NCBI GenBank assembly: GCA_013285735.1
Contig: JABDGZ010000005.1
Span: 3,834-67,833, forward strand
From: Candidatus Omnitrophota bacterium
GTDB taxonomy: Bacteria > Omnitrophota > Gorgyraeia > Zapsychrales > Fredricksoniimonadaceae
Direction of reading: 5' to 3'
DNA: 64,000 nt
The position numbers and the translations under genes were made by a program. Shown piece after piece: positions 37,046 through 44,310 of this stretch; the stretch's first letter is position 1, and every line of letters begins with the position of its first letter. The notes beneath the pieces are model-generated. The model worked only from the letters and a program-made list of their open reading frames with translations, was not told where the DNA came from and did not search any database.

Positions 37046-37645
37046 ATGTACCCCAAACTAATAGAAACATTAATTGAACGCTTAACAAAACTCCCTGGCA
37101 TCGGCCGCCGCAGTGCTGAACGCATCGTGTATTGGATGCTGGCCCATGATGCTCAGGATGTCAAGGCCTTGGCAGATAGTATTCAGCAGCTAAAAGAGGG
37201 TTTACGTTTTTGCAAGCAGTGCAATCATTTAAGCGAGCAGGAGTTATGCTTGGTCTGCGCAGATACTAATCGTGACCGGAAAACTATCTGTATCGTTGAG
37301 AGTCCCAAAGATCTTTTGGCCATCGAACGCACCGGCTCTTACCGGGGTATTTATTATGTCTTATTAGGCAATATTTCTCCGTCGGAAGGTCGTGGTCCTG
37401 ATGATTTGAATTTGCCTAAGTTGATTAGTCGTATCAAGGATGAAGGGATTGGGGAGATTGTGATTGCCACTGATCCGGATGCAGAAGGTGAGATGACATC
37501 ATTATACTTGTCTAAAGAGTTAAAAAATCTGGGCGCACGCATCAGCCGTATTGGGCTTGGCATACCCGTCGGTTCTGCCGTTGAATATGTGGATATCTCC
37601 ACATTAACAATGTCCATGAACTCTCGCAGATTGGTTGACTTCTAA
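37046..37645 (+). CDS. recR: recombination protein RecR
   Basis: 'LTKLPGIGRRSAERI' (HhH), C4 'CKQCNHLSEQELCLVC', Toprim 'ICIVESPKD'. Start at ATG 37046; the upstream extension covers the hairpin repeat. Confidence 0.9.
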   Translation: MYPKLIETLIERLTKLPGIGRRSAERIVYWMLAHDAQDVKALADSIQQLKEGLRFCKQCNHLSEQELCLVCADTNRDRKTICIVESPKDLLAIERTGSYRGIYYVLLGNISPSEGRGPDDLNLPKLISRIKDEGIGEIVIATDPDAEGEMTSLYLSKELKNLGARISRIGLGIPVGSAVEYVDISTLTMSMNSRRLVDF

Positions 37646-37662
37646 AACTTTTTAAGTATAAT
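37635..37662 (+). promoter_or_regulatory. sigma70-like promoter for the tRNA-Asn gene
   Basis: TTGACT (37635-37640), 16-nt spacer, TATAAT (37657-37662). Lies about 38 nt upstream of the tRNA 5' end, inside the recR 3' end. Confidence 0.45.
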
Positions 37663-37699: not shown

Positions 37700-37980
37700 T
37701 CCCCTGTAGCTCAGTCGGTAGAGCAACTGGCTGTTACGTAAAGTTAGCAGCCTTTAGCGGAAACGCTAGAGTGATAAGTGGGCTAAGTCAGGGAAACCCA
37801 TTAGTTTAATGGGCAATCCTGAGCTAGCATCTATCAGTTAAATGGTAGAGGGCAAGTGCAGAGACTTTACACCCACCGCCCACAGTCTTTTTAGACCGGG
37901 CGAAGAGAAAGTCCGACTCCTGTCGTAAGATAGGTCAGATTGTAACCAGTATGTCCGAGGTTCGAGCCCTCGCGGGGGAG
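37700..37980 (+). tRNA. tRNA-Asn(GUU) interrupted in the anticodon loop by a 208-nt intron
   Basis: Exon 1 (37700-37734): acceptor TCCCCTG, D-arm GCTC-AGTCGGTA-GAGC, anticodon stem ACTGG, then CTGT. Exon 2 (37943-37980): TAA, CCAGT, variable ATGTC, T-arm CGAGG-TTCGAGC-CCTCG, acceptor CGGGGGA, discriminator G. The spliced loop CTGTTAA gives anticodon GTT. CCA is not encoded. Confidence 0.85.
37735..37942 (+). ncRNA. group I intron (IC3-like, no ORF)
   Basis: P1: exon GGCTGT pairs with intron GCAGCC (37747-37752), with a U.G pair at the splice site. P10: GTTA (37743-37746) pairs with exon-2 TAAC. The terminal nucleotide is G (37942). Conserved core strings: TCAGGGAAACC (37788), GGCAATCCTGAGC (37812), GTGCAGAGACT (37856), GAGAAAGTCC (37905). 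Confidence 0.8.
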
Positions 37981-37988
37981 CTTCTTCT

Positions 37989-38039
37989 AGAAAGTCTGCA
38001 ACATATTGAAATTTAATAAGTTGCAGACTTTCTATTTTT
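37989..38039 (+). terminator. rho-independent terminator after the tRNA
   Basis: 14-bp perfect stem AGAAAGTCTGCAAC (37989-38002) / GTTGCAGACTTTCT (38020-38033), followed by ATTTTT. Confidence 0.65.
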
Positions 38040-38116: not shown

Positions 38117-38368
38117 ATGCCGACGATACTTGAAATTTTAGGGTAGAGACTGTTTTTTTATGCGAATGAAAATAACGAGCCAATACATATTCATGCCCGT
38201 AAAGCAGGGATGGAATGTAAATATTGGATTGACGTTAAAGGGTTTGATATCACCGAAGCATATTCCTTTGGCTTGAAGGAAAAAGAAAAAAGGGAAATCC
38301 GTAGAATTATTTTTGATCATTTTGATTACATTGTAGATAAATGGAATGAATTTGAGAGGAGAAAATAA
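38117..38368 (+). pseudogene. DUF4160 family protein gene with in-frame TAG at codon 10
   Basis: Translation 'MPTILEILG*RLFFYANENNEPIHIHARKAGMECKYWIDVKGFDITEAYSFGLKEKEKREIRRIIFDHFDYIVDKWNEFERRK'. The TAG is at 38144-38146. The ORF abuts the DUF2442 start, the usual pair arrangement. A TTGCGG-17-TATAGT promoter-like site lies upstream. Confidence 0.6.
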
Positions 38369-38626
38369 ATGAAACCAATACATAGAATTCAAAGAATAGC
38401 TTTTTCAGGCTCTCAATTGAAGATAAAAGTGGATGGTAAAGAAGTTGTTATTAATTTAACCAAAGTTTCTCCAAGATTACTTAAGGCTTCGAAAAAAGAA
38501 CGTGAAGCTTATGAGATTTCTCCTTCTGGGTATGGTATACATTGGCCGCTGATTGATGAAGATCTTTCCGTTGATTCACTTTTAGGGATTAAACATTTGC
38601 CTTCCAAAGAATTTGTTAGTAAATAA
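38369..38626 (+). CDS. DUF2442 family protein
   Basis: 85 aa. 'YGIHWPLIDEDLSVDSLLG' is the DUF2442 hallmark. AGGAG RBS upstream. Confidence 0.7.
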   Translation: MKPIHRIQRIAFSGSQLKIKVDGKEVVINLTKVSPRLLKASKKEREAYEISPSGYGIHWPLIDEDLSVDSLLGIKHLPSKEFVSK

Positions 38627-39011
38627 CAATATTTTTTAGCCTGATAAACACGCCATAAACCTGGCAAACGCGCCATTTGCTAAGAAGCAAAAGCATCTGT
38701 TAATCGCGCAAAAATTGCTCGATTAGTGCGCGATTGATAGTTGAGACATTTATGGGACATTTGGGACATAGGGAACTTAATGGACTCATAAAGGACTCAA
38801 AGGGCTCAATATATCGGACACATCAGACAATGGAGACATAAAGAGGACAAAGGGGACATTTGAGCAAATGGTTCATAATTGGATCAAATAGCTCTATTAT
38901 TCTGGCGATTGCTTGGCGATTAGCTTCTTAAAGTGCACGAATTGCACGATTTTTGCACGTTTTTGTATTGCGCATTATGCGCATTTAATGCGCAAAAGAT
39001 TTATCTGAATT
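38627..39011. repeat. non-coding phased-word module, copy 1
   Basis: Runs of G/C-rich words, each followed by an A/T tract and each reiterated 2-3 times at 9-13-nt spacing (examples: GGGACATTT, GGCGATT, GCACG+T-run, TGCGCATT). A homologous copy lies at 39895-40361. Confidence 0.8.
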
Positions 39012-39104
39012 AAAAATAATCCATCTATCTCCATCTTTAGCTTTGGTCAGCAGGCCTAGTGTTACCTCATAAGAAAAGTTCGGATTTCTGGGGGACTCGC
39101 GGAG
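39012..39104. repeat. cassette-end element R-A
   Basis: AAAAATAATCCATCTATC...AAAAGTTCGGATTTCTGGGGGACTCGCGGAG. One of 4 copies. The minus strand reads LRESPRNPNFSYEVTLGLLTKAKDGDRWIIFNSDKSFAH*. Confidence 0.85.
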
Positions 39105-39115
39105 TTTTCACAAAT

Positions 39116-39147
39116 AGCTGTAAGTAAATAACTTACAGCTGTTTTTT
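39116..39147 (+). terminator. hairpin/terminator after R-A
   Basis: AGCTGTAAGT (39116-39125) / ACTTACAGCT (39131-39140), followed by GTTTTTT. Confidence 0.55.
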
Positions 39148-39216
39148 ATTTATTCCGACGAGAGAATTCACCTAAAAGTGAGTTTTTGAAAATAATACTT
39201 CCCAAAATGGGAAATT

Positions 39217-39228
39217 ATGGTATATTTA
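39217..39228 (+). promoter_or_regulatory. shared cassette promoter-like 12-mer ATGGTATATTTA (higBA copy)
   Basis: An identical 12-mer lies at 40544-40555 upstream of brnT. It contains the -10-like TATATT 7 nt before the higB GTG. The adjacent inverted repeat TTCCC-N5-GGGAA (39199-39213) is a possible operator. Confidence 0.35.
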
Positions 39229-39232
39229 AATC

Positions 39233-39532
39233 GTGAGAGTAATATCGGTTAAGAAGTTAAAAGATTTTTGGAGTAAGCCGGCTTACCGTGATTCCGAGCA
39301 GGCCCTCCGAGCTTGGTATGCGGAAGCTAAAAAGGGTAATTATTTTCACTCTCACCAGATTAAACAGATTTACCGGAAAGCTAGTATTGTCGGTAATGGA
39401 CGAATCGTATTTAATATTTGTGGGAATAAATATCGTTTAGTGGTGGCAGTTAAATATGAGTTTAAAATTTTTTATATTCGTTTCATTGGAACACACAGTC
39501 AGTATGACAATATTGATGTAAAGGAGATATGA
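39233..39532 (+). CDS. higB: type II toxin HigB (RelE/HigB mRNA interferase)
   Basis: 'FNICGNKYRLVVAVKYEFKIFYIRFIGTHSQYDNI' is the HigB signature. GTG start. Confidence 0.8.
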   Translation: MRVISVKKLKDFWSKPAYRDSEQALRAWYAEAKKGNYFHSHQIKQIYRKASIVGNGRIVFNICGNKYRLVVAVKYEFKIFYIRFIGTHSQYDNIDVKEI

Positions 39533-39894
39533 TTATGGAAATAAAAATTCATCCAATTAATTCGAAGAAGGATTACGAAAAAGCCTTAAGCACAATTGAC
39601 CGCTTATGGGATGCCAAATCGGGTACCGAGGAGGGCGATACTTTAGACGTGCTCACTACATTAGTTGAAGCTTACGAAAACAAGAATTACCCCATGCTGC
39701 CTCCCAATCCCGTTGAAGCTATTAAATTTCGTATGGAGCAGATGGGAATTGGGAAGGCTGACGTTGCCAATATTCTTGGTGGGGCCAATAGGGTTTCTGA
39801 AATTTTGCATAAAAAACGGAAATTAAGTTTGAGGATGATTCGTAATTTGCATGATAAATTAAAAATTCCCTATGAATCTTTAATACCTGCTTAG
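39529..39894 (+). CDS. higA: type II antitoxin HigA (HTH-XRE)
   Basis: ATGA overlap with the higB stop. 'DYEKALSTIDRLWDAKSGTEEGDTLDVLTTLVEAYE' plus a C-terminal HTH 'KADVANILGGANRVSEIL'. Confidence 0.8.
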   Translation: MIMEIKIHPINSKKDYEKALSTIDRLWDAKSGTEEGDTLDVLTTLVEAYENKNYPMLPPNPVEAIKFRMEQMGIGKADVANILGGANRVSEILHKKRKLSLRMIRNLHDKLKIPYESLIPA

Positions 39895-40361
39895 TTTCAA
39901 CCCGCCAACTTGACAAACACGCCATAAATACGCCAAACGCGCCTACCAAGGGGCATTAAAGGAGCAAAAGGGGCAGTGTTAATCGAGCAAAAATTGCCCG
40001 ATTAGTGCGTGATTAATATTTGAGACATTTATGGGACATTTGGGACATAGGAAGCTTAAAGGACTCAAAGGGCTCAATATATCGGACGTTTATCGGACAT
40101 ATTAGACAATGGAGACATAAAGGGGCCATTTGCGCAAATGGTTCATAATTAGCTTAAATGGCCCAGTAGAAACTTGACATAAACCCGACAAACACGACAT
40201 TTTGAAATGGGCCAGAATGGGGCCAAAATGGCCCTATTATGTTGGCGATTCTGGCGATTATTTGGCGATTAGATTCTAAAGTGCACGAATTGCAGGATTA
40301 TTGCACGTTTTTATATTGCGCATTATGCGCATTTAGTGCGCAAAGGTGCTCATGTTATTTC
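39895..40361. repeat. non-coding phased-word module, copy 2
   Basis: Collinear with 38627-39011, sharing the same word order: ACACGCCATAAA..., GAGACATTTATGGGACATTTGGGACATAGG, GGCGATT x3, GTGCACGAATTGCA..., TTGCGCATTATGCGCATTTA. Carries ~90 extra nt (GGGCCA/GGCCC words) around 40150-40240. Confidence 0.8.
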
Positions 40362-40450
40362 AAAATAATCCACCGGTCGCCAGTTTTTGAATTGGTAAGA
40401 CCTAGAATTATTTCATAAGAAAAGTTCGGATTTCTAGGGGACGTGGGGAG
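40362..40450. repeat. cassette-end element R-B
   Basis: AAAATAATCCACCGG...AAAAGTTCGGATTTCTAGGGGACGTGGGGAG. The minus strand reads LPTSPRNPNFSYEIILGLTNSKTGDRWIILK*. Confidence 0.85.
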
Positions 40451-40470
40451 TTTGATAGTCGAAGAAGGGT

Positions 40471-40483
40471 AAAATCCGAACTT
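40471..40483. repeat. inverted partial copy (L3) of the cassette-end core
   Basis: AAAATCCGAACTT lies 20 nt after R-B, forming an inverted repeat with AAGTTCGGATTT of R-B. Confidence 0.6.
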
Positions 40484-40490
40484 CTTGGTA

Positions 40491-40524
40491 AAAAAGCCGT
40501 CCTTAATACAAGGATGGCTTTTTT
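40491..40524 (+). terminator. rho-independent terminator
   Basis: AAAAAGCCGTCC-loop-GGATGGCTTTTTT. Confidence 0.55.
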
Positions 40525-40565
40525 ATTGAATAATGCTAAGAATATGGTATATTTACATTGTACAT

Positions 40566-40859
40566 ATGGATGATCTTAAATTCGATTGGGACAAAAATAA
40601 GGCAGTGCTTAATAAAAAGAAACATGGTGTTTCTTTTGAAGAAGCTGTCACGGTATTTTATGACGATGATGCTTTAGAATTTCATGATCCTGATCATTCT
40701 GAGAGTGAAGACAGATTTTTTATGGTAGGTTTGAGTTTTCGCACAAGGGTTTTGCTGGTTTCTCATTGTATAAGAGAAGCTGGATCATTAATTAGAATCA
40801 TTTCGGCCAGAAAAGCAACCAAGCAAGAAGCTGGGAAATATTGGGAGGAAAAGACATGA
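40566..40859 (+). CDS. brnT: type II toxin BrnT (DUF497)
   Basis: 'FDWDKNKAVLNKKKHGVSFEEAVTVFYDDDALEFHDPDHSESEDRFFMVG...IRIISARKATKQE'. Start at ATG 40566. Confidence 0.8.
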   Translation: MDDLKFDWDKNKAVLNKKKHGVSFEEAVTVFYDDDALEFHDPDHSESEDRFFMVGLSFRTRVLLVSHCIREAGSLIRIISARKATKQEAGKYWEEKT

Positions 40860-41077
40860 GAGCAGAATATGATCTATCAAAAATGAAGTTTCGTCGTAAT
40901 CCTTATGCTGCCCGGTTGAAAAGGCCAGTTACAATCCGTTTGGGCGCAGATATTATTAGCTATTTTAAGTCAATGGCTAAAGAAATGGGTGTGCCCTATC
41001 AGAATTTAATTAACTTATATTTAAGGGATTGTGTACAGGCCCATCGTAAGATAGGGTGGATATCTAATTTAAAATAA
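40856..41077 (+). CDS. brnA: type II antitoxin BrnA
   Basis: ATGA overlap with the brnT stop. GGGAGG RBS. 'VTIRLGADIISYFKSMAKEMGVPYQNLINLYLRDC' fits the BrnA/CopG-like pattern. Confidence 0.75.
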   Translation: MRAEYDLSKMKFRRNPYAARLKRPVTIRLGADIISYFKSMAKEMGVPYQNLINLYLRDCVQAHRKIGWISNLK

Positions 41078-41159
41078 TCCATCTATCTCTGTTTTTAGCA
41101 TTGGTTAGGCCAAGGATCACTTCATATGAAAAGTTCGGATTTCTGGGGGACTCGCGGAG
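41071..41159. repeat. cassette-end element R-C
   Basis: Starts within the brnA stop region. The minus strand reads LRESPRNPNFSYEVILGLTNAKNRDRWIILN*. Confidence 0.85.
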
Positions 41160-41163
41160 CCAT

Positions 41164-41207
41164 ATAATAAGAAAGCCCATCAGATTTATGATGGGCTTTC
41201 TTATTAT
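41164..41207. terminator. perfect 19-bp hairpin (bidirectional terminator-like)
   Basis: ATAATAAGAAAGCCCATCA (41164-41182), 6-nt loop, TGATGGGCTTTCTTATTAT (41189-41207). Confidence 0.5.
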
Positions 41208-41402
41208 ATTATTGGCGGGGGAGCGAAAGCTCGAAGTGTGTGCTCTTTTTAAGGGTTTGAAAAGATAGTTATTGATTGAGAAGAATTAATTTCGAAAATA
41301 TTTTTAATTTTCGTCGCTGTATATAGTTTGAAAAACGGCGGGATATATGTTATGGTTTACGGTTACCGAGAATTTTGAGATATTTTAATATTGGAAGGTT
41401 AC

Positions 41403-42698
41403 ATGAACTGTGGTTCAATTAAAGTATTTATTTTTGTCTTTTTTATGTTTTTGACGCTCTTAACCGGCTGCCCTAAGTCTTTTGCGCAACCTGTCTCGCC
41501 CACAGGAGGGGATGATTCTTCCATAAGTAAGGGAACTTCAGATGACCAAGCCAGTGAAGCTAGTGCCGATGAGTCATTGAAGCAGATTCATGATTTGGAA
41601 TTGAAAATGGAGGAGAATAGCAAGCGCTTGGACGCTCTGGAAAAGGCTATCAATCAAGCAAATACAGAAAATGCCCCTGCTGTTGAAACTGCACCCGATA
41701 CCAATACGATGATTCAACAAGCCTCCGCACAGGCAGCCCCGGACCAAACAGCTCCTGCTTCCCAGACAGCTCCCCGTGAGCAAGTTTCTTCAATCAAAGA
41801 TTCCTCTCGATTTGATCCGATATCAATGCGCATTATTTCAGACCCTCTATATTTACCGCTTAAGGGACAATTTTATGGTTCGACCGAATATGATTTTTCC
41901 AGGAATAGTTACAGTCAGGATAATTATTTAGGTAAAGAATATGCATATGATAAAAGCGATACCAATGAAGTTTCTCAGGATTTAGAGTATGGTTTGACCG
42001 ATGATTTGACCCTAAGATTTTATGATGAATTTCAAGATGATAGAAGGTATGTTGCAGGTGAAGGCGAATATTTATTTATTGGTTTTATTAATCCGGAATT
42101 TGGTGCCACTTATAGGATGATTGATCAGAAGCAATATCCAGTAGATGTTGATTTAATAGCTAATTATTACCCAGATGTTTTTAGTGAGAAAGCGGCAACT
42201 CCTGACAAAACAGGAACAGTGGCATCGGGCGGTCAGAAGATTACTTTGAGGGAAGCAGTAGGTCGAGAAATGAGAAATTTAACGATCCAGGGTTTTGTTG
42301 AAGTAGAATATCAGGGTAAGGAAAAAACTGAAATTTTGGCAGACGATAGGGATGCTGAAGACAAAGCGAGCTGGGCATATGTCTTTGGGTTAAATACCCA
42401 AATCCGTATAACGGATCGTTTTTCAGTCAATTTTGGGGGGGCATATACAGTTGCAAATAACATGGATTATACAAGTAGCACGGGGCTTTCAGGTATTCAT
42501 GTTCCAGCCGATTATAGTGATTTCGACACATCTTTAAACTATCAATTTATTCCTGATAGGCTGGTTGGTAGTTTAACTTATACCCGTAATGTTGACGATG
42601 ACAGAAAATATTTGTACGCGAACGTAGTTCACGATGAAATAGATAGGAAATATAGCCAGGATATTTTTGGGATAAAGTTTTCATATCTTTTTAATTAA
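41403..42698 (+). CDS. lipoprotein with coiled-coil N-region and beta-rich C-region (possible outer-membrane protein)
   Basis: Signal peptide plus lipobox 'LLTGC'. Low-complexity Q/A/P linker. Alternating aromatic pattern, ending 'FGIKFSYLFN'. No family recognised. Confidence 0.4.
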   Translation: MNCGSIKVFIFVFFMFLTLLTGCPKSFAQPVSPTGGDDSSISKGTSDDQASEASADESLKQIHDLELKMEENSKRLDALEKAINQANTENAPAVETAPDTNTMIQQASAQAAPDQTAPASQTAPREQVSSIKDSSRFDPISMRIISDPLYLPLKGQFYGSTEYDFSRNSYSQDNYLGKEYAYDKSDTNEVSQDLEYGLTDDLTLRFYDEFQDDRRYVAGEGEYLFIGFINPEFGATYRMIDQKQYPVDVDLIANYYPDVFSEKAATPDKTGTVASGGQKITLREAVGREMRNLTIQGFVEVEYQGKEKTEILADDRDAEDKASWAYVFGLNTQIRITDRFSVNFGGAYTVANNMDYTSSTGLSGIHVPADYSDFDTSLNYQFIPDRLVGSLTYTRNVDDDRKYLYANVVHDEIDRKYSQDIFGIKFSYLFN

Positions 42699-42786
42699 AA
42701 ATAATCCATCTATTTTTGCTTTTACCATTCGTAAGTCCCAAAATGACCTCATAGAAAAAGTTCGGATTTCTGGGGGACTCGGGGAG
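42697..42786. repeat. cassette-end element R-D
   Basis: Overlaps the lipoprotein stop codon. The minus strand reads LPESPRNPNFFYEVILGLTNGKSKNRWIIFN*. Confidence 0.85.
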
Positions 42787-42879
42787 CCAATTTGATTAAG
42801 CCCGTTGTGAGTGTTATACCTGCAGCGAGTTTACTTATTATATGGAAGCAAGTGTGAGTATTTTATTTGCTATGTCGTT

Positions 42880-43074
42880 ATGAGTCGTTGGAAGCGTCTA
42901 GAAAATCTTGAGAGAAATTTGTCACGAATGTCAGTTAAAGAAATTAAAATAGAACTGGCATATTGGCGGCAACATGCAAATTTATTAGCTCCTTCGATTA
43001 AGAAATTAGCGATGAAGCGCGTTTTTAAGATTGAAAGAATATTAAAGCAAAAAGAAAATGAAGATATTATTTAA
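42880..43074 (+). CDS. hypothetical 64-aa basic protein
   Basis: 'MSRWKRLENLERNLSRMSVKEIKIELAYWRQH...'. No recognisable domain. The start is chosen at an internal ATG. Confidence 0.3.
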   Translation: MSRWKRLENLERNLSRMSVKEIKIELAYWRQHANLLAPSIKKLAMKRVFKIERILKQKENEDII

Positions 43075-43158
43075 AGGTTTAGTTGTAAAGCTAGTTTCAG
43101 AATTACTTTTTTATTTTATTATCCAATTGTAAAACATGTCCACGTAGTGGAGTCATTT

Positions 43159-43190
43159 AGCCCGTCAGAATTATTCTGACGGGCTTTTTG
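43159..43190 (+). terminator. rho-independent terminator
   Basis: AGCCCGTCAGAA-loop-TTCTGACGGGCT followed by TTTTTG. Confidence 0.6.
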
Positions 43191-43259
43191 TTTACCTTGA
43201 CAGTTAACTTAATGAGACTAGTATATTTTAGAAGTTAACAATTTATTACGGGGCAAATA

Positions 43260-43742
43260 ATGCAATCTTTACAGGAACTTAACCCGAAAAGGGTCGATGT
43301 AGTTATTTTGATAATCCTTTCTATTGTTTTGCTTATTATTGGATTAACTCTTCCAATTTTGACTGTTCGTCAATTATGGAATAGTAATACCTATTCGATC
43401 CTGACGGGTATACAAAATCTTTGGCAAACAAAGTATTACGCTTTGGCCGTCATCATATTCGTTTTTTCCATTATTTTTCCTATTGCAAAGTTACTTTCCC
43501 TGTCTGCTGTTTGGTTTATAAGGTTAAAAGATGAACAAAGGAAGGGTCTTGTTTTATTGATGGAGATTTTCGGTAAATGGTCTATGTTGGATGTTTTTGT
43601 AACGGCAATCATGATTGTATGGCTTAAGTTAGGAGCGATAGCATCAGCCAAAGCAGAGAATGGGATCTATTTTTTTGCAGCATCTGTATTGTTGACAATG
43701 ATTGTTTCTTCTTTACAGAGCAGTTTAGTAAAACGTTCTTAA
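43260..43742 (+). CDS. PqiA-like (paraquat-inducible protein A family) membrane protein, single domain
   Basis: Four TM segments. 'FPIAKLLSLSAVWF' and 'GKWSMLDVFVTAIMIV' resemble PqiA-family motifs. Confidence 0.55.
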   Translation: MQSLQELNPKRVDVVILIILSIVLLIIGLTLPILTVRQLWNSNTYSILTGIQNLWQTKYYALAVIIFVFSIIFPIAKLLSLSAVWFIRLKDEQRKGLVLLMEIFGKWSMLDVFVTAIMIVWLKLGAIASAKAENGIYFFAASVLLTMIVSSLQSSLVKRS

Positions 43743-43881
43743 GGTGGTATAATTTTATTGATTTTTTAGATGCATTTGTTATTATACGGTTGTTTGAAGT
43801 CCCCGATGTCCCCCATGTCGGTTTCTGTAGTAAAAAATTTCCCCCTTGTTTATTTAACCTATCAAAACGAAAGGAAAATCT

Positions 43882-44310
43882 ATGAATTTGAACAATGTCA
43901 ATGTCATGGGCAATTTGACAAGGGACCCGGAAATGAGATGCCTTCCATCGGGGAAAGCGGTATGTAGTCTTTCTATAGCTAATAATCGTGTATTTATGAA
44001 AAACGGCGAGAAAGTCAGTGAGGTTTCCTATTTTGATGTGGATGTGTGGGGTATTACTGCAGAGAATTGTTCCAAATATTTAACCAAGGGCAATGGCATC
44101 ATTGTAGAAGGACGTCTGCGTCAGGACCGCTGGGAGAAAGATGGTAAAACTCAGAGCCGTATTAAGATTACAGCCAATGCCGTTCATTTTTTGCCCAAGA
44201 AACAAAATCATTTAATCGGGTCATCTTCAGAAGAGTCATCTAATGACAAGTCAATAGAAGTTCAATCAGTAACGGACACTTCCCCTGAGGACATTTCTTG
44301 GGAAGAATAG
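43882..44310 (+). CDS. ssb: single-stranded DNA-binding protein
   Basis: OB fold 'MNLNNVNVMGNLTRDPEMR...YFDVDVWG..AENCSKYLTKGNGIIVEGRLRQDRWE'. Acidic tail 'PEDISWEE'. Confidence 0.85.
   Translation: MNLNNVNVMGNLTRDPEMRCLPSGKAVCSLSIANNRVFMKNGEKVSEVSYFDVDVWGITAENCSKYLTKGNGIIVEGRLRQDRWEKDGKTQSRIKITANAVHFLPKKQNHLIGSSSEESSNDKSIEVQSVTDTSPEDISWEE

What the first reader, a model, noticed from the sequence alone, without database searches (positions are those of the whole stretch)
37700..37980. Self-splicing-type group I intron inside tRNA-Asn(GUU)
A complete cloverleaf appears only after removing 37735-37942, and the rejoined anticodon loop is CTGTTAA (GUU, Asn). The insert obeys group I rules. The 5' exon ends in U, which pairs with G in an internal guide (exon GGCTGT : intron GCAGCC at 37747-37752). 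The 4 nt immediately 5' of the guide (GTTA) complement the first 4 nt of exon 2 (TAAC), giving P10. The last intron nucleotide is G. The core carries strings I recognise from the cyanobacterial tRNA-Leu and Azoarcus tRNA-Ile IC3 introns: TCAGGGAAACC, GGCAATCCTGAGC, GTGCAGAGACT, GAGAAAGTCC. No ORF is present. The bacterial tRNA group I introns I know of sit in tRNA-Leu(UAA), tRNA-fMet, tRNA-Ile(CAU) and tRNA-Arg(CCU). I am not aware of a tRNA-Asn(GUU) host with the split between anticodon positions 35 and 36. This gene also marks the edge of the accessory array.
Basis: partly seen in the sequence, partly recalled or inferred. Interest (0 to 1): 0.75.

Follow-up and report, generated by a model that had tools for sequence, protein, structure and literature searches.

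The report
Group I intron splitting tRNA-Asn gene
A 208-base self-splicing-type RNA intron interrupts the anticodon of an asparagine tRNA gene in an Omnitrophota bacterium; the call is correct, but this kind of intron was already described in 2020 and 2026 and is common in uncultured bacteria.

Summary
Window 37735-37942 is a group I intron (Rfam RF00028, 76.2 bits, E 1.4e-17). It splits a tRNA-Asn(GUU) gene between anticodon positions 35 and 36. It has a U.G pair at the 5' splice site, a 4-bp P10 and a terminal G. I drew P1-P10, and 28 homologues support the drawing (91% of cells paired, 40 of 68 pairs with compensatory changes).

The host is an Omnitrophota bacterium. RecR, DnaX and gene order match Omnitrophota MAGs.

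The implied novelty does not hold. tRNA-Asn 35/36 group I introns were catalogued by Williams (2020). Nakagawa et al. (2026) showed that they self-splice in vitro.

Two points are mildly new:
- The core is compact and IC3-like, with no P7.1/P7.2. The published 35/36 introns are almost all IA.
- Near relatives (RecR at least 85% identical) carry, at the same recR-adjacent locus, an intron-less allele, an ORF-less intron, or a 559-610 nt intron. The long introns carry an HNH-like homing-endonuclease ORF or a disrupted copy of it.

The window holds the ORF-less form. Verdict: a new member of a known kind, of low to moderate interest.

The parts
37635..37662 (+). sigma-70-type promoter, TTGACT-16 nt-TATAAT, overlapping the end of recR, about 38 nt upstream of the tRNA
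   Evidence: 11 of 12 consensus matches. This is a consensus match only; one site was found against 2.0 expected in shuffles of the region, so function is inferred from position.
37700..37734 (+). tRNA-Asn exon 1 (positions 1-35, ends ...CUGU35). The last six bases, 37729-37734 GGCTGT, form the 5' strand of P1.
   Evidence: Identical exon 1 occurs in intron-less alleles of relatives.
37735..37942 (+). group I intron, 208 nt, no ORF
   Evidence: Rfam RF00028, 76.2 bits. Precisely absent from intron-less alleles. No ORF.
37743..37746 (+). P10 guide GTTA, pairs with exon-2 TAAC (37943-37946)
   Evidence: Paired in 88% of cells across 28 homologues (helix 2).
37747..37752 (+). internal guide sequence GCAGCC, the 3' strand of P1. 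G37747 makes the U.G wobble with U37734.
   Evidence: U.G in 28 of 28 homologues and P1 100% paired.
37753..37770 (+). P2 hairpin, 7 bp, with GAAA tetraloop (37760-37763)
   Evidence: All 7 pairs covary (helix 3).
37778..37782 (+). P3 5' strand GTGGG, pairs with 37872-37876 CCCAC
   Evidence: helix 4: 100% paired and 4 of 5 pairs covary. The window itself carries a U-A where most homologues have C-G.
37788..37822 (+). P4 (37788-37793 with 37817-37822), J4/5 AAA, P5 hairpin (37797-37813), J5/4 CAA
   Evidence: P4 is 100% paired and nearly invariant; 5 of 6 P5 pairs covary. The free-energy fold recovers both.
37823..37857 (+). P6 (GCT/AGT) and P6a hairpin
   Evidence: Helix 7: 8 of 10 pairs covary.
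37861..37866 (+). P7 5' strand GAGACT (bulged A37862), pairs with 37910-37914 AGTCC. This is the guanosine-binding helix and forms a pseudoknot with P3.
   Evidence: helix 9: invariant and 100% paired in 28 homologues. The string is identical to that in IC3-labelled tRNA-Leu introns of Nakagawa Table S5.
37877..37902 (+). P8 hairpin (5 bp base, internal loop, 4 bp tip)
   Evidence: Base helix: 4 of 5 pairs covary and 94% are paired (helix 10).
37903..37909 (+). J8/7, AAGAGAA
   Evidence: conserved block in alignment A1
37915..37936 (+). P9 hairpin with GUAA tetraloop (37925-37928)
   Evidence: helix 13: 98% paired and 7 of 8 pairs covary
37942..37942 (+). omega-G, last intron nucleotide
   Evidence: G in all 100 resolved homologous loci.
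37943..37980 (+). tRNA-Asn exon 2 (positions 36-73, discriminator G). No CCA is encoded; the following bases are CTT.
37988..38034 (+). terminator-like hairpin followed by TATTTTTATT
   Evidence: -25.9 kcal/mol, z = -9.4. The consensus scan missed it because the loop is too long for its rule.

Best explanation
Window 37700-37980 is the recR-adjacent tRNA-Asn(GUU) gene of an Omnitrophota bacterium. A compact 208-nt group I ribozyme with no ORF (37735-37942) interrupts it between anticodon nucleotides 35 and 36.

Proposed course of events (steps 1-3 are inferred from the anatomy, not shown here):
1. The gene is transcribed from its own promoter (37635-37662) to a strong hairpin (37988-38034).
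2. The intron folds into P1-P9. Exogenous guanosine bound in P7 attacks after U35, which sits in the U.G pair of P1.
3. P10 (GUUA:UAAC) aligns exon 2. The terminal G (37942) replaces the cofactor in P7, and the exons are ligated. This creates the anticodon loop CUGUUAA.
4. Only then can the tRNA be matured. CCA must be added, because none is encoded.

The core architecture is IC3-like: P2 with a GAAA loop, P9 with a GNRA loop, no P5abc and no P7.1/P7.2.

The window copy is the endonuclease-less form of a mobile element. In close relatives the same site is empty, or holds an ORF-less intron, or holds an intron of 559-610 nt whose ribozyme part is 93-95% identical in five of the eight (81-88% in the other three). 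The long introns have an HNH-like homing-endonuclease ORF, or a disrupted copy of it, inserted in the P1 loop.
For: Identity:
- Rfam RF00028, 76.2 bits.
- Spliced exons give tRNA-Asn(gtt).
- Intron-less alleles with identical exons are called tRNA-Asn by ARAGORN and tRNA (RF00005) by Rfam.
- Those alleles lack exactly 37735-37942.

Structure:
- All 68 drawn pairs are canonical in the window.
- Over 28 homologues, 91.3% of cells pair, against 78.2% in shuffles and 31-47% in slid controls. 40 pairs show changes on both sides.
- P2, P3, P5, P6a, P8 and P9 covary. P1, P4 and P7 are invariant.
- The free-energy fold of the intron alone recovers P2, P4, P5, P6a, P8 and P9, z = -5.6.

Host:
- L072 (Omnitrophota MAG REEB252) has RecR 86%, DnaX 77% and epimerase 65% identical, in the same gene order, followed by tRNA-Asn with a 208-nt intron.
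- L066 and L094 (Omnitrophota) are also syntenic.

Class:
- Nakagawa et al. 2026 (PMC13011429) showed precise in vitro self-splicing of tRNA-Asn 35/36 introns.
- A scan returned 119 loci; 100 resolve as Asn split at 35/36, all ending in G.

IC3-like core:
- The span from the P7 5' strand to the P7 3' strand is 43 nt. IC3-labelled introns give 38-58 (one tRNA-Arg intron 84). IA-labelled Asn introns give 62-85.
- nhmmer scores are 41.2 and 38.2 bits against an IC3-labelled profile, and 30.6 and 21.1 against an IA-Asn profile.

Mobility:
- Among relatives with RecR at least 85% identical there are 8 short introns, 7 long introns, 1 intron cut by a contig end, 7 intron-less alleles with the same anticodon stem, and 13 intron-less alleles with another stem.
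- The long introns carry an ORF of 106-126 aa in six of eight loci; in L127 and L138 it is shortened to 70-80 aa.
- The ORF matches Pfam HNH over the whole profile, E 0.003.
- It is 50% identical (E 8e-43) to the ORF of a Patescibacteria tRNA-Asn intron.
Against: - No experiment or transcript data show splicing of this copy.
- Only 64 kb of the genome is visible, so I cannot say whether this is the only tRNA-Asn gene.
- The subgroup call rests on architecture and on a rough profile comparison, not on the curated subgroup covariance models.
- The HNH match is below Pfam's cut-off (18 bits against 21.4), and NCBIfam gives nothing.
- Host assignment rests on MAG labels.
- The promoter is a consensus match only.
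Confidence: 0.92

Rival explanations
1. The ribozyme belongs to the IA-type tRNA-Asn intron lineage (the type reported for almost all 35/36 introns) and secondarily lost P7.1/P7.2. It is not an IC3 intron that colonised the Asn site.
For: - It shares exon context, guide sequence, P2 style and insertion site with the IA-labelled Asn introns.
- The HNH-like ORF of its near relatives is 50% identical to the ORF of a Patescibacteria Asn intron that Nakagawa et al. labelled IA1.
- Some compact family members score about equally on both profiles: L077, L097, L048, L014.
Against: - The window and most compact members score higher on the IC3-labelled profile, including when P1/P2 are removed (38.2 against 21.1 bits).
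- The P7-P3'-P8-P7' span is 43 nt, the same as in IC3 tRNA-Leu introns.
- Several family members have the IC3-style P6 block GAGCCAAGCC...GGAAGGTGCAGAGACTAGAC and a CCTAAG...TATGG motif in P8.
Confidence: 0.3
2. The intron is a decayed, splicing-dead remnant, and this tRNA-Asn copy is a pseudogene backed up by an intact copy elsewhere in the genome.
For: Only 64 kb of the genome is seen, and no splicing data exist. The window copy has lost the endonuclease ORF that relatives carry.
Against: - Every core helix is intact. The window's only departures from nearly invariant positions are the two sides of one P3 pair (U-A for C-G), a compensatory change.
- U.G, P10 and omega-G are intact.
- The gene keeps a near-consensus promoter and a strong terminator hairpin.
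Confidence: 0.05
3. The boundaries or the tRNA identity are different, for example the tRNA-Leu(taa) with a 193-nt intron that ARAGORN reports when introns are allowed, or a shifted splice site.
For: ARAGORN with -i calls tRNA-Leu(taa) i(34,193) on the raw sequence. Nakagawa et al. document such miscalls for this class.
Against: - Intron-less alleles in relatives have exactly exon 1 plus exon 2 and are tRNA-Asn(gtt).
- The junction can slide by 1 or 2 nt (TA repeat) without changing the product, but only the 35/36 junction gives both U at -1 and G at omega.
Confidence: 0.01

Closest known systems
tRNA-Asn(GUU) group I introns at position 35/36: 'Asn.4Ug' of Williams 2020 (bioRxiv 10.1101/2020.01.27.920355), as cited by Nakagawa et al. 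2026, mSystems (PMC13011429)
   Same: Same host tRNA, same insertion site, U at -1 and G at omega, and the same standard tRNA finders miss or miscall the gene. Relatives of the window intron carry an HNH-like ORF 50% identical to that of a Patescibacteria member. Self-splicing was shown in vitro for the class.
   Different: The published examples I could read (Bipolaricaulota, Nitrospirota, Cyanobacteriota, Patescibacteria) are 248-569 nt and labelled IA1 or IA2. The five with a complete sequence in the table have an extra hairpin region between P7 and P3'. The window intron is 208 nt and lacks it. The host phylum Omnitrophota appears in the part of their table I could read only with a tRNA-fMet intron; 248 rows of that table were cut off.
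IC3 bacterial tRNA introns: cyanobacterial tRNA-Leu(UAA) 34/35, Azoarcus tRNA-Ile(CAU), tRNA-fMet 33/34, tRNA-Arg(CCU) 36/37
   Same: Compact size (the Azoarcus intron is about 205 nt, from my own knowledge). Same helix set P1-P10 without P5abc or P7.1/P7.2. Identical P7 strings GCAGAGACT/AGTCC. GNRA loops on P2 and P9. Higher profile score than against IA-type Asn introns.
   Different: A different tRNA and a different anticodon-loop position. The guide sequence is matched to GGCUGU. P6 is GCU/AGU instead of GCC/GGU. The P8 receptor motif is altered in the window copy.
Homing-endonuclease-driven intron gain and loss cycle (Goddard and Burt model; my own knowledge)
   Same: Empty, ORF-bearing and ORF-less states coexist at one locus among close relatives. 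Two ORF copies are shortened: L127 (80 aa) and L138 (70 aa).
   Different: Cleavage activity and target site of the HNH-like protein are untested. The states come from metagenome contigs, not from a defined population.

Membership tests
Group I intron (Rfam RF00028) | Covariance-model score at or above the curated gathering score | tested here: met
   76.2 bits against 50, E 1.4e-17, full model 1-253
Group I intron (Rfam RF00028) | P1 formed by the 5' exon end and an internal guide, with a U.G wobble at the 5' splice site | tested here: met
   GGCUGU:GCAGCC with U37734.G37747. U.G in 28 of 28 homologues.
Group I intron (Rfam RF00028) | Terminal guanosine (omega-G), and P10 between the guide and the 3' exon | tested here: met
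   G37942; GUUA:UAAC. Omega-G in all 100 resolved loci.
Group I intron (Rfam RF00028) | Conserved core P3-P9 with a P3/P7 pseudoknot, supported by covariation | tested here: met
   All helices drawn. 91.3% of cells paired, 40 of 68 pairs with changes on both sides, slid controls 31-47%.
Group I intron (Rfam RF00028) | Guanosine-dependent self-splicing | not testable with these tools
   Shown in vitro for other tRNA-Asn 35/36 introns by Nakagawa et al., not for this copy
tRNA-Asn(GUU) 35/36 intron class (Asn.4Ug) | Spliced product is tRNA-Asn with anticodon GUU | tested here: met
   ARAGORN on the joined exons. Identical intron-less alleles in relatives are called tRNA-Asn.
tRNA-Asn(GUU) 35/36 intron class (Asn.4Ug) | Insertion between anticodon nucleotides 35 and 36 | tested here: met
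   Exon 1 ends CUGU35. Intron-less alleles lack 37735-37942. Only this junction has U at -1 and G at omega.
IC3 subgroup | No P5abc extension; simple P5 hairpin | tested here: met
   P5 is a 6-bp hairpin of 17 nt
IC3 subgroup | No P7.1/P7.2 between P7 and P3' | tested here: met
   Five nt (UUACA) separate the drawn P7 and P3' strands. The P7-to-P7' span is 43 nt, as in IC3-labelled tRNA-Leu introns.
IC3 subgroup | Best match to the curated IC3 subgroup covariance model | not tested
   Those models are not available here. Proxy: nhmmer profile of 9 IC3-labelled introns 41.2 bits against 30.6 for 5 IA-labelled Asn introns; core only 38.2 against 21.1.
IA subgroup | Extra pairings P7.1/P7.2 between P7 and P3' (criterion from my own knowledge of the Michel-Westhof classification) | tested here: not met
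   Absent in the window. Present as a roughly 35-nt insert in the IA-labelled Asn introns and in about 80 of the 100 resolved loci.
Mobile intron with homing endonuclease | Endonuclease ORF inside the intron | tested here: not met
   No ORF in the 208-nt window copy. Eight relatives have an HNH-like ORF in the P1 loop, full length (106-126 aa) in six.

The most novel reading that the evidence does not exclude
The window intron represents an IC3-architecture ribozyme lineage that occupies the tRNA-Asn 35/36 site, which published surveys found almost exclusively filled by IA introns. It uses the same HNH homing-endonuclease family as the Patescibacteria IA1 introns. In Omnitrophota populations it is caught in an ongoing cycle of invasion, ORF loss and intron loss. 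[quoted passage not shown]
Probability: 0.35. Interest if true: 0.45.

Novelty: new member of a known kind. Interest (0 to 1): 0.25.

Why it matters
- Practical: standard tRNA finders miss this gene (ARAGORN reports no tRNA in the window). Genome-completeness scores for Omnitrophota MAGs can therefore wrongly report tRNA-Asn as missing. Nakagawa et al. made the same point for Patescibacteria.
- Biological: the locus and its relatives offer a natural series at one syntenic site: empty site, intron with endonuclease ORF, and ORF-less intron. That series could be used to study homing of a tRNA intron in uncultured bacteria.
- Evolutionary: it could also show whether IC3-type and IA-type cores exchange endonuclease genes.
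- For the window itself, this is an ordinary member of an already described class.

Tried and rejected
I rejected this because the intron-less alleles are tRNA-Asn.
- My first exon-2 search used the wrong anticodon-stem offset and resolved nothing. It was fixed.
- My first pair count used one bracket type for P3 and P7, so the pseudoknot was mis-paired. It was redone with separate brackets.
- My first P7-span regular expressions failed, or caught an AGTC inside P8. The corrected window value of 43 nt comes and from the drawn structure.
- The consensus terminator scan found nothing.
- NCBIfam gives no hit for the intron ORF.
- The held text of Williams 2020 does not contain 'Asn', because the table is an image. 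The 'Asn.4Ug' attribution therefore rests on Nakagawa's citation.
- A search for a repeat of the tRNA 3' end, as an island border, found only the gene itself.
- The viral-contig scan gave 3 hits on large contigs, which I did not pursue.
- L026, L058 and L105 (Bradyrhizobium) are chance pattern matches without a tRNA-like exon.
- A literature search for Omnitrophota plus 'group I intron' found nothing relevant.

Full report
**1. The observation**

- ARAGORN finds no tRNA anywhere in the 64 kb.
- The only Rfam family that reaches its gathering score in the window is Intron_gpI (RF00028). It matches 37725-37935 on the + strand at 76.2 bits against 50, E 1.4e-17, over the whole model.
- Removing 37735-37942 and joining the flanks gives a 74-nt tRNA-Asn(gtt) with anticodon loop CTGTTAA.
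- No ORF of 50 aa or more overlaps the insert.
- With its intron option, ARAGORN instead calls a tRNA-Leu(taa) with a 193-nt intron. Nakagawa et al. describe this type of miscall for the class.

**2. Boundaries**

The junction can slide by one or two bases, because the intron starts TA and exon 2 starts TA. Only 37734|37735 and 37942|37943 put U at -1 and G at omega.

Independent evidence comes from close relatives. Intron-less alleles at the same recR-adjacent locus align to the window up to 37736 and resume at 37943. ARAGORN calls them tRNA-Asn(gtt), and Rfam calls them tRNA.

**3. Structure**

I drew P1-P10 on the window sequence. All 68 pairs are canonical.

| Element | Window coordinates | Note |
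|---|---|---|
| P1 | 37729-37734 with 37747-37752 | U.G at the splice site |
| P10 | 37743-37746 with 37943-37946 | |
| P2 | 37753-37770 | GAAA loop |
| P3 | 37778-37782 with 37872-37876 | |
| P4 | 37788-37793 with 37817-37822 | |
| P5 | 37797-37813 | |
| P6/P6a | 37823-37857 | |
| P7 | 37861-37866 with 37910-37914 | bulged A; pseudoknot with P3 |
| P8 | 37877-37902 | |
| P9 | 37915-37936 | GUAA loop |
| omega-G | 37942 | |

I tested the drawing on an alignment of 28 distinct compact homologues (A1).
- 91.3% of cells pair, against 78.2% after shuffling and 31-47% when partners are slid by 1-3 columns.
- 40 of 68 pairs change on both sides. No shuffle out of 500 reached any of the five measures.
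- P2 (7 of 7 pairs), P3 (4 of 5), P5 (5 of 6), the P8 base (4 of 5) and P9 (7 of 8) covary.
- P1, P4 and P7 are invariant or nearly so, and are fully paired.

Caveat: the structure was derived from one of the aligned sequences, which by itself favours it over the slid versions. The double changes do not depend on that.

The window's only departures from nearly invariant positions are the two sides of one P3 pair (U-A for C-G). That is a compensatory change. The free-energy fold of the intron alone recovers P2, P4, P5, P6a, P8 and P9, z = -5.6.

**4. Transcription unit**

- A TTGACT-16-TATAAT site (11 of 12 matches) lies at 37635-37662.
- A hairpin of -25.9 kcal/mol (z = -9.4) followed by a T-rich run lies at 37988-38034.
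- The gene encodes no CCA.
- Function of these signals is inferred from position.

**5. Host**

- The exact RecR protein is on record in a 6.7-kb Logan contig of run SRR8422745.
- L072, an Omnitrophota MAG (REEB252), encodes RecR 86%, DnaX 77% and epimerase 65% identical, in the same order. They are followed by a tRNA-Asn with a 208-nt intron that is 81% identical over gene plus intron.
- L066 and L094, also Omnitrophota, share Tex, DnaX and RecR; L066 also shares the epimerase.
- I conclude that the window comes from an Omnitrophota bacterium (phylum in the PVC group).

**6. What is known**

Nakagawa et al. 2026 (PMC13011429) report the following.
- They showed precise GTP-dependent self-splicing in vitro for one of each, with omega-G to C controls.
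- They counted 28 introns at 35/36 in 4,934 complete genomes: 19 Patescibacteria, 3 Cyanobacteriota, 3 Nitrospirota, and one each in Bacillota_A, Bipolaricaulota and Pseudomonadota.
- 25 of the 28 were classified IA.
- They attribute the first listing of the type ('Asn.4Ug') to Williams 2020, whose tFind survey raised the number of interrupted tRNA types from 4 to 21.

**7. Distribution**

I scanned one genome per species with a pattern joining the exon-1 end, the guide sequence and P4.
- Three loci are chance hits.
- 100 resolve as tRNA-Asn split at 35/36. All end in G, and the introns are 188-334 nt.
- By MAG label, the hosts include Omnitrophota (at least 15 MAGs), Nitrospirota, Binatia, Methylomirabilota, Planctomycetota, Acidobacteriota, Aminicenantes, Bacteroidota, Stahlbacteria, Melainabacteria and Bipolaricaulota.

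**8. Subgroup**

- The IA-labelled Asn introns of Nakagawa Table S5 carry about 35 extra nucleotides between the P7 5' strand and P3'. Their span from the P7 5' strand to the P7 3' strand is 62-85 nt.
- IC3-labelled tRNA-Leu and tRNA-fMet introns have 38-58 nt.
- The window has 43 nt.
- About one fifth of the 100 resolved loci, mostly Omnitrophota, share the compact form.
- A sequence profile of nine IC3-labelled introns scores the window at 41.2 bits (38.2 from P3 onward). A profile of five IA-labelled Asn introns gives 30.6 (21.1). Long Asn introns show the reverse, by a wide margin.

It is a proxy, because the curated subgroup models could not be run.

**9. Polymorphism and mobility**

A metagenome scan with RecR gave 55 loci. 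Among those with RecR at least 85% identical, the adjacent tRNA-Asn gene has these states:

| State | Loci |
|---|---|
| No intron, exons or anticodon stem as in the window | 7 |
| No intron, a different anticodon stem | 13 |
| Intron of 206-225 nt | 8 |
| Intron of 559-610 nt | 7 |
| Intron cut by a contig end | 1 |

- The ribozyme part of five of the eight long introns (seven in this table plus L167) is 93-95% identical to window 37740-37981; the other three are 81-88%.
- The extra DNA sits in the P1 loop. It encodes a 106-126 aa protein with CxxC...HH...CxxCH motifs in six loci. In L127 and L138 the ORF is shortened to 70-80 aa.
- The protein matches Pfam HNH over the whole profile, at E 0.003. 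That is below the curated cut-off.
- It is 50% identical (E 8e-43) to the ORF in the Patescibacteria GCA_000503835.1 tRNA-Asn intron. Nakagawa et al. report HNH-family endonucleases in four such Patescibacteria introns.
- The window copy has only TACGTAAA where relatives have the ORF. I read it as the endonuclease-less stage of a homing element. This is an inference: no cleavage data exist.

**10. Verdict**

The finding is real and correctly interpreted. It belongs to a class that is already published and that is common in uncultured bacteria.

Two modest additions come from this work:
- the compact IC3-like architecture at the Asn 35/36 site in Omnitrophota;
- the three allele states among close relatives, including endonuclease-bearing copies outside Patescibacteria.

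I rate it a new member of a known kind, interest 0.25.

Noticed in passing
L103:7328-7965 (VGKP01000003.1, MAG labelled Candidatus Pacearchaeota archaeon): A tRNA-Asn(GTT) is split at 35/36 by a 206-nt compact group I intron (RF00028, 81.5 bits) on a contig that looks archaeal. The spliced tRNA has G1-C72 instead of the U1-A72 of the bacterial loci I read. The neighbouring ORF has eukaryote/archaea-type KH domains (PNO1/KRR1-like). Two large surface proteins rich in NxS/T sequons lie nearby. Williams 2020 dismissed a similar Pacearchaeota hit as mis-binning. A group I intron in an archaeal tRNA gene would be unusual.
   Followed up: partly
L002-L120, e.g. L014, L025, L029, L038, L043, L064, L080, L091, L113, L119: recR (often with dnaX) lies directly upstream of the intron-bearing tRNA-Asn gene in at least 30 loci from many phyla, including Omnitrophota, Planctomycetota, Nitrospirota, Methylomirabilota and Binatia. 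I did not check whether intron-less tRNA-Asn genes share this synteny in those phyla.
   Followed up: no
L129, L131, L140, L141, L145-L149, L151, L154, L157, L161, L170: Fourteen recR-adjacent tRNA-Asn alleles (13 with RecR at least 85% identical) have a different anticodon stem (..CACGCTGT|TAACGTG.. or ..GCGCGCTGT|TAACGCGC..), and none of them carries an intron. Every intron-bearing allele has ..GGCTGT. These could be alleles that resist homing or weaken P1. Untested.
   Followed up: no
window 38210-44310: A run of small toxin-antitoxin-like gene pairs follows the tRNA: DUF4160/DUF2442 at 38210-38626, then pairs at 39233-39894 and 40533-41077. Each pair is shared with only one to three of the related contigs, and in L171 and L121 the shared pair again sits just after the tRNA gene. 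This looks like a variable cassette region. No repeat of the tRNA 3' end was found, and the downstream ORFs were not annotated.
   Followed up: partly
L100 (JAXGYF010000001.1, Candidatus Vecturithrix MAG): Two intron-bearing tRNA-Asn copies (introns of 250 and 251 nt) lie within one 8-kb stretch.
   Followed up: no
L043 (CAMBFS010000088.1): A contig of a MAG labelled Klebsiella pneumoniae carries dnaX-recR-tRNA-Asn with a 265-nt intron, resembling loci from environmental phyla. Probably a mis-binned contig.
   Followed up: no
L176, L177, L178 (IMG/VR contigs of 470, 161 and 55 kb): Three contigs of the viral collection match the tRNA-Asn-intron pattern. They were not examined. They may be large phages, or cellular contigs filed as viral.
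   Followed up: no
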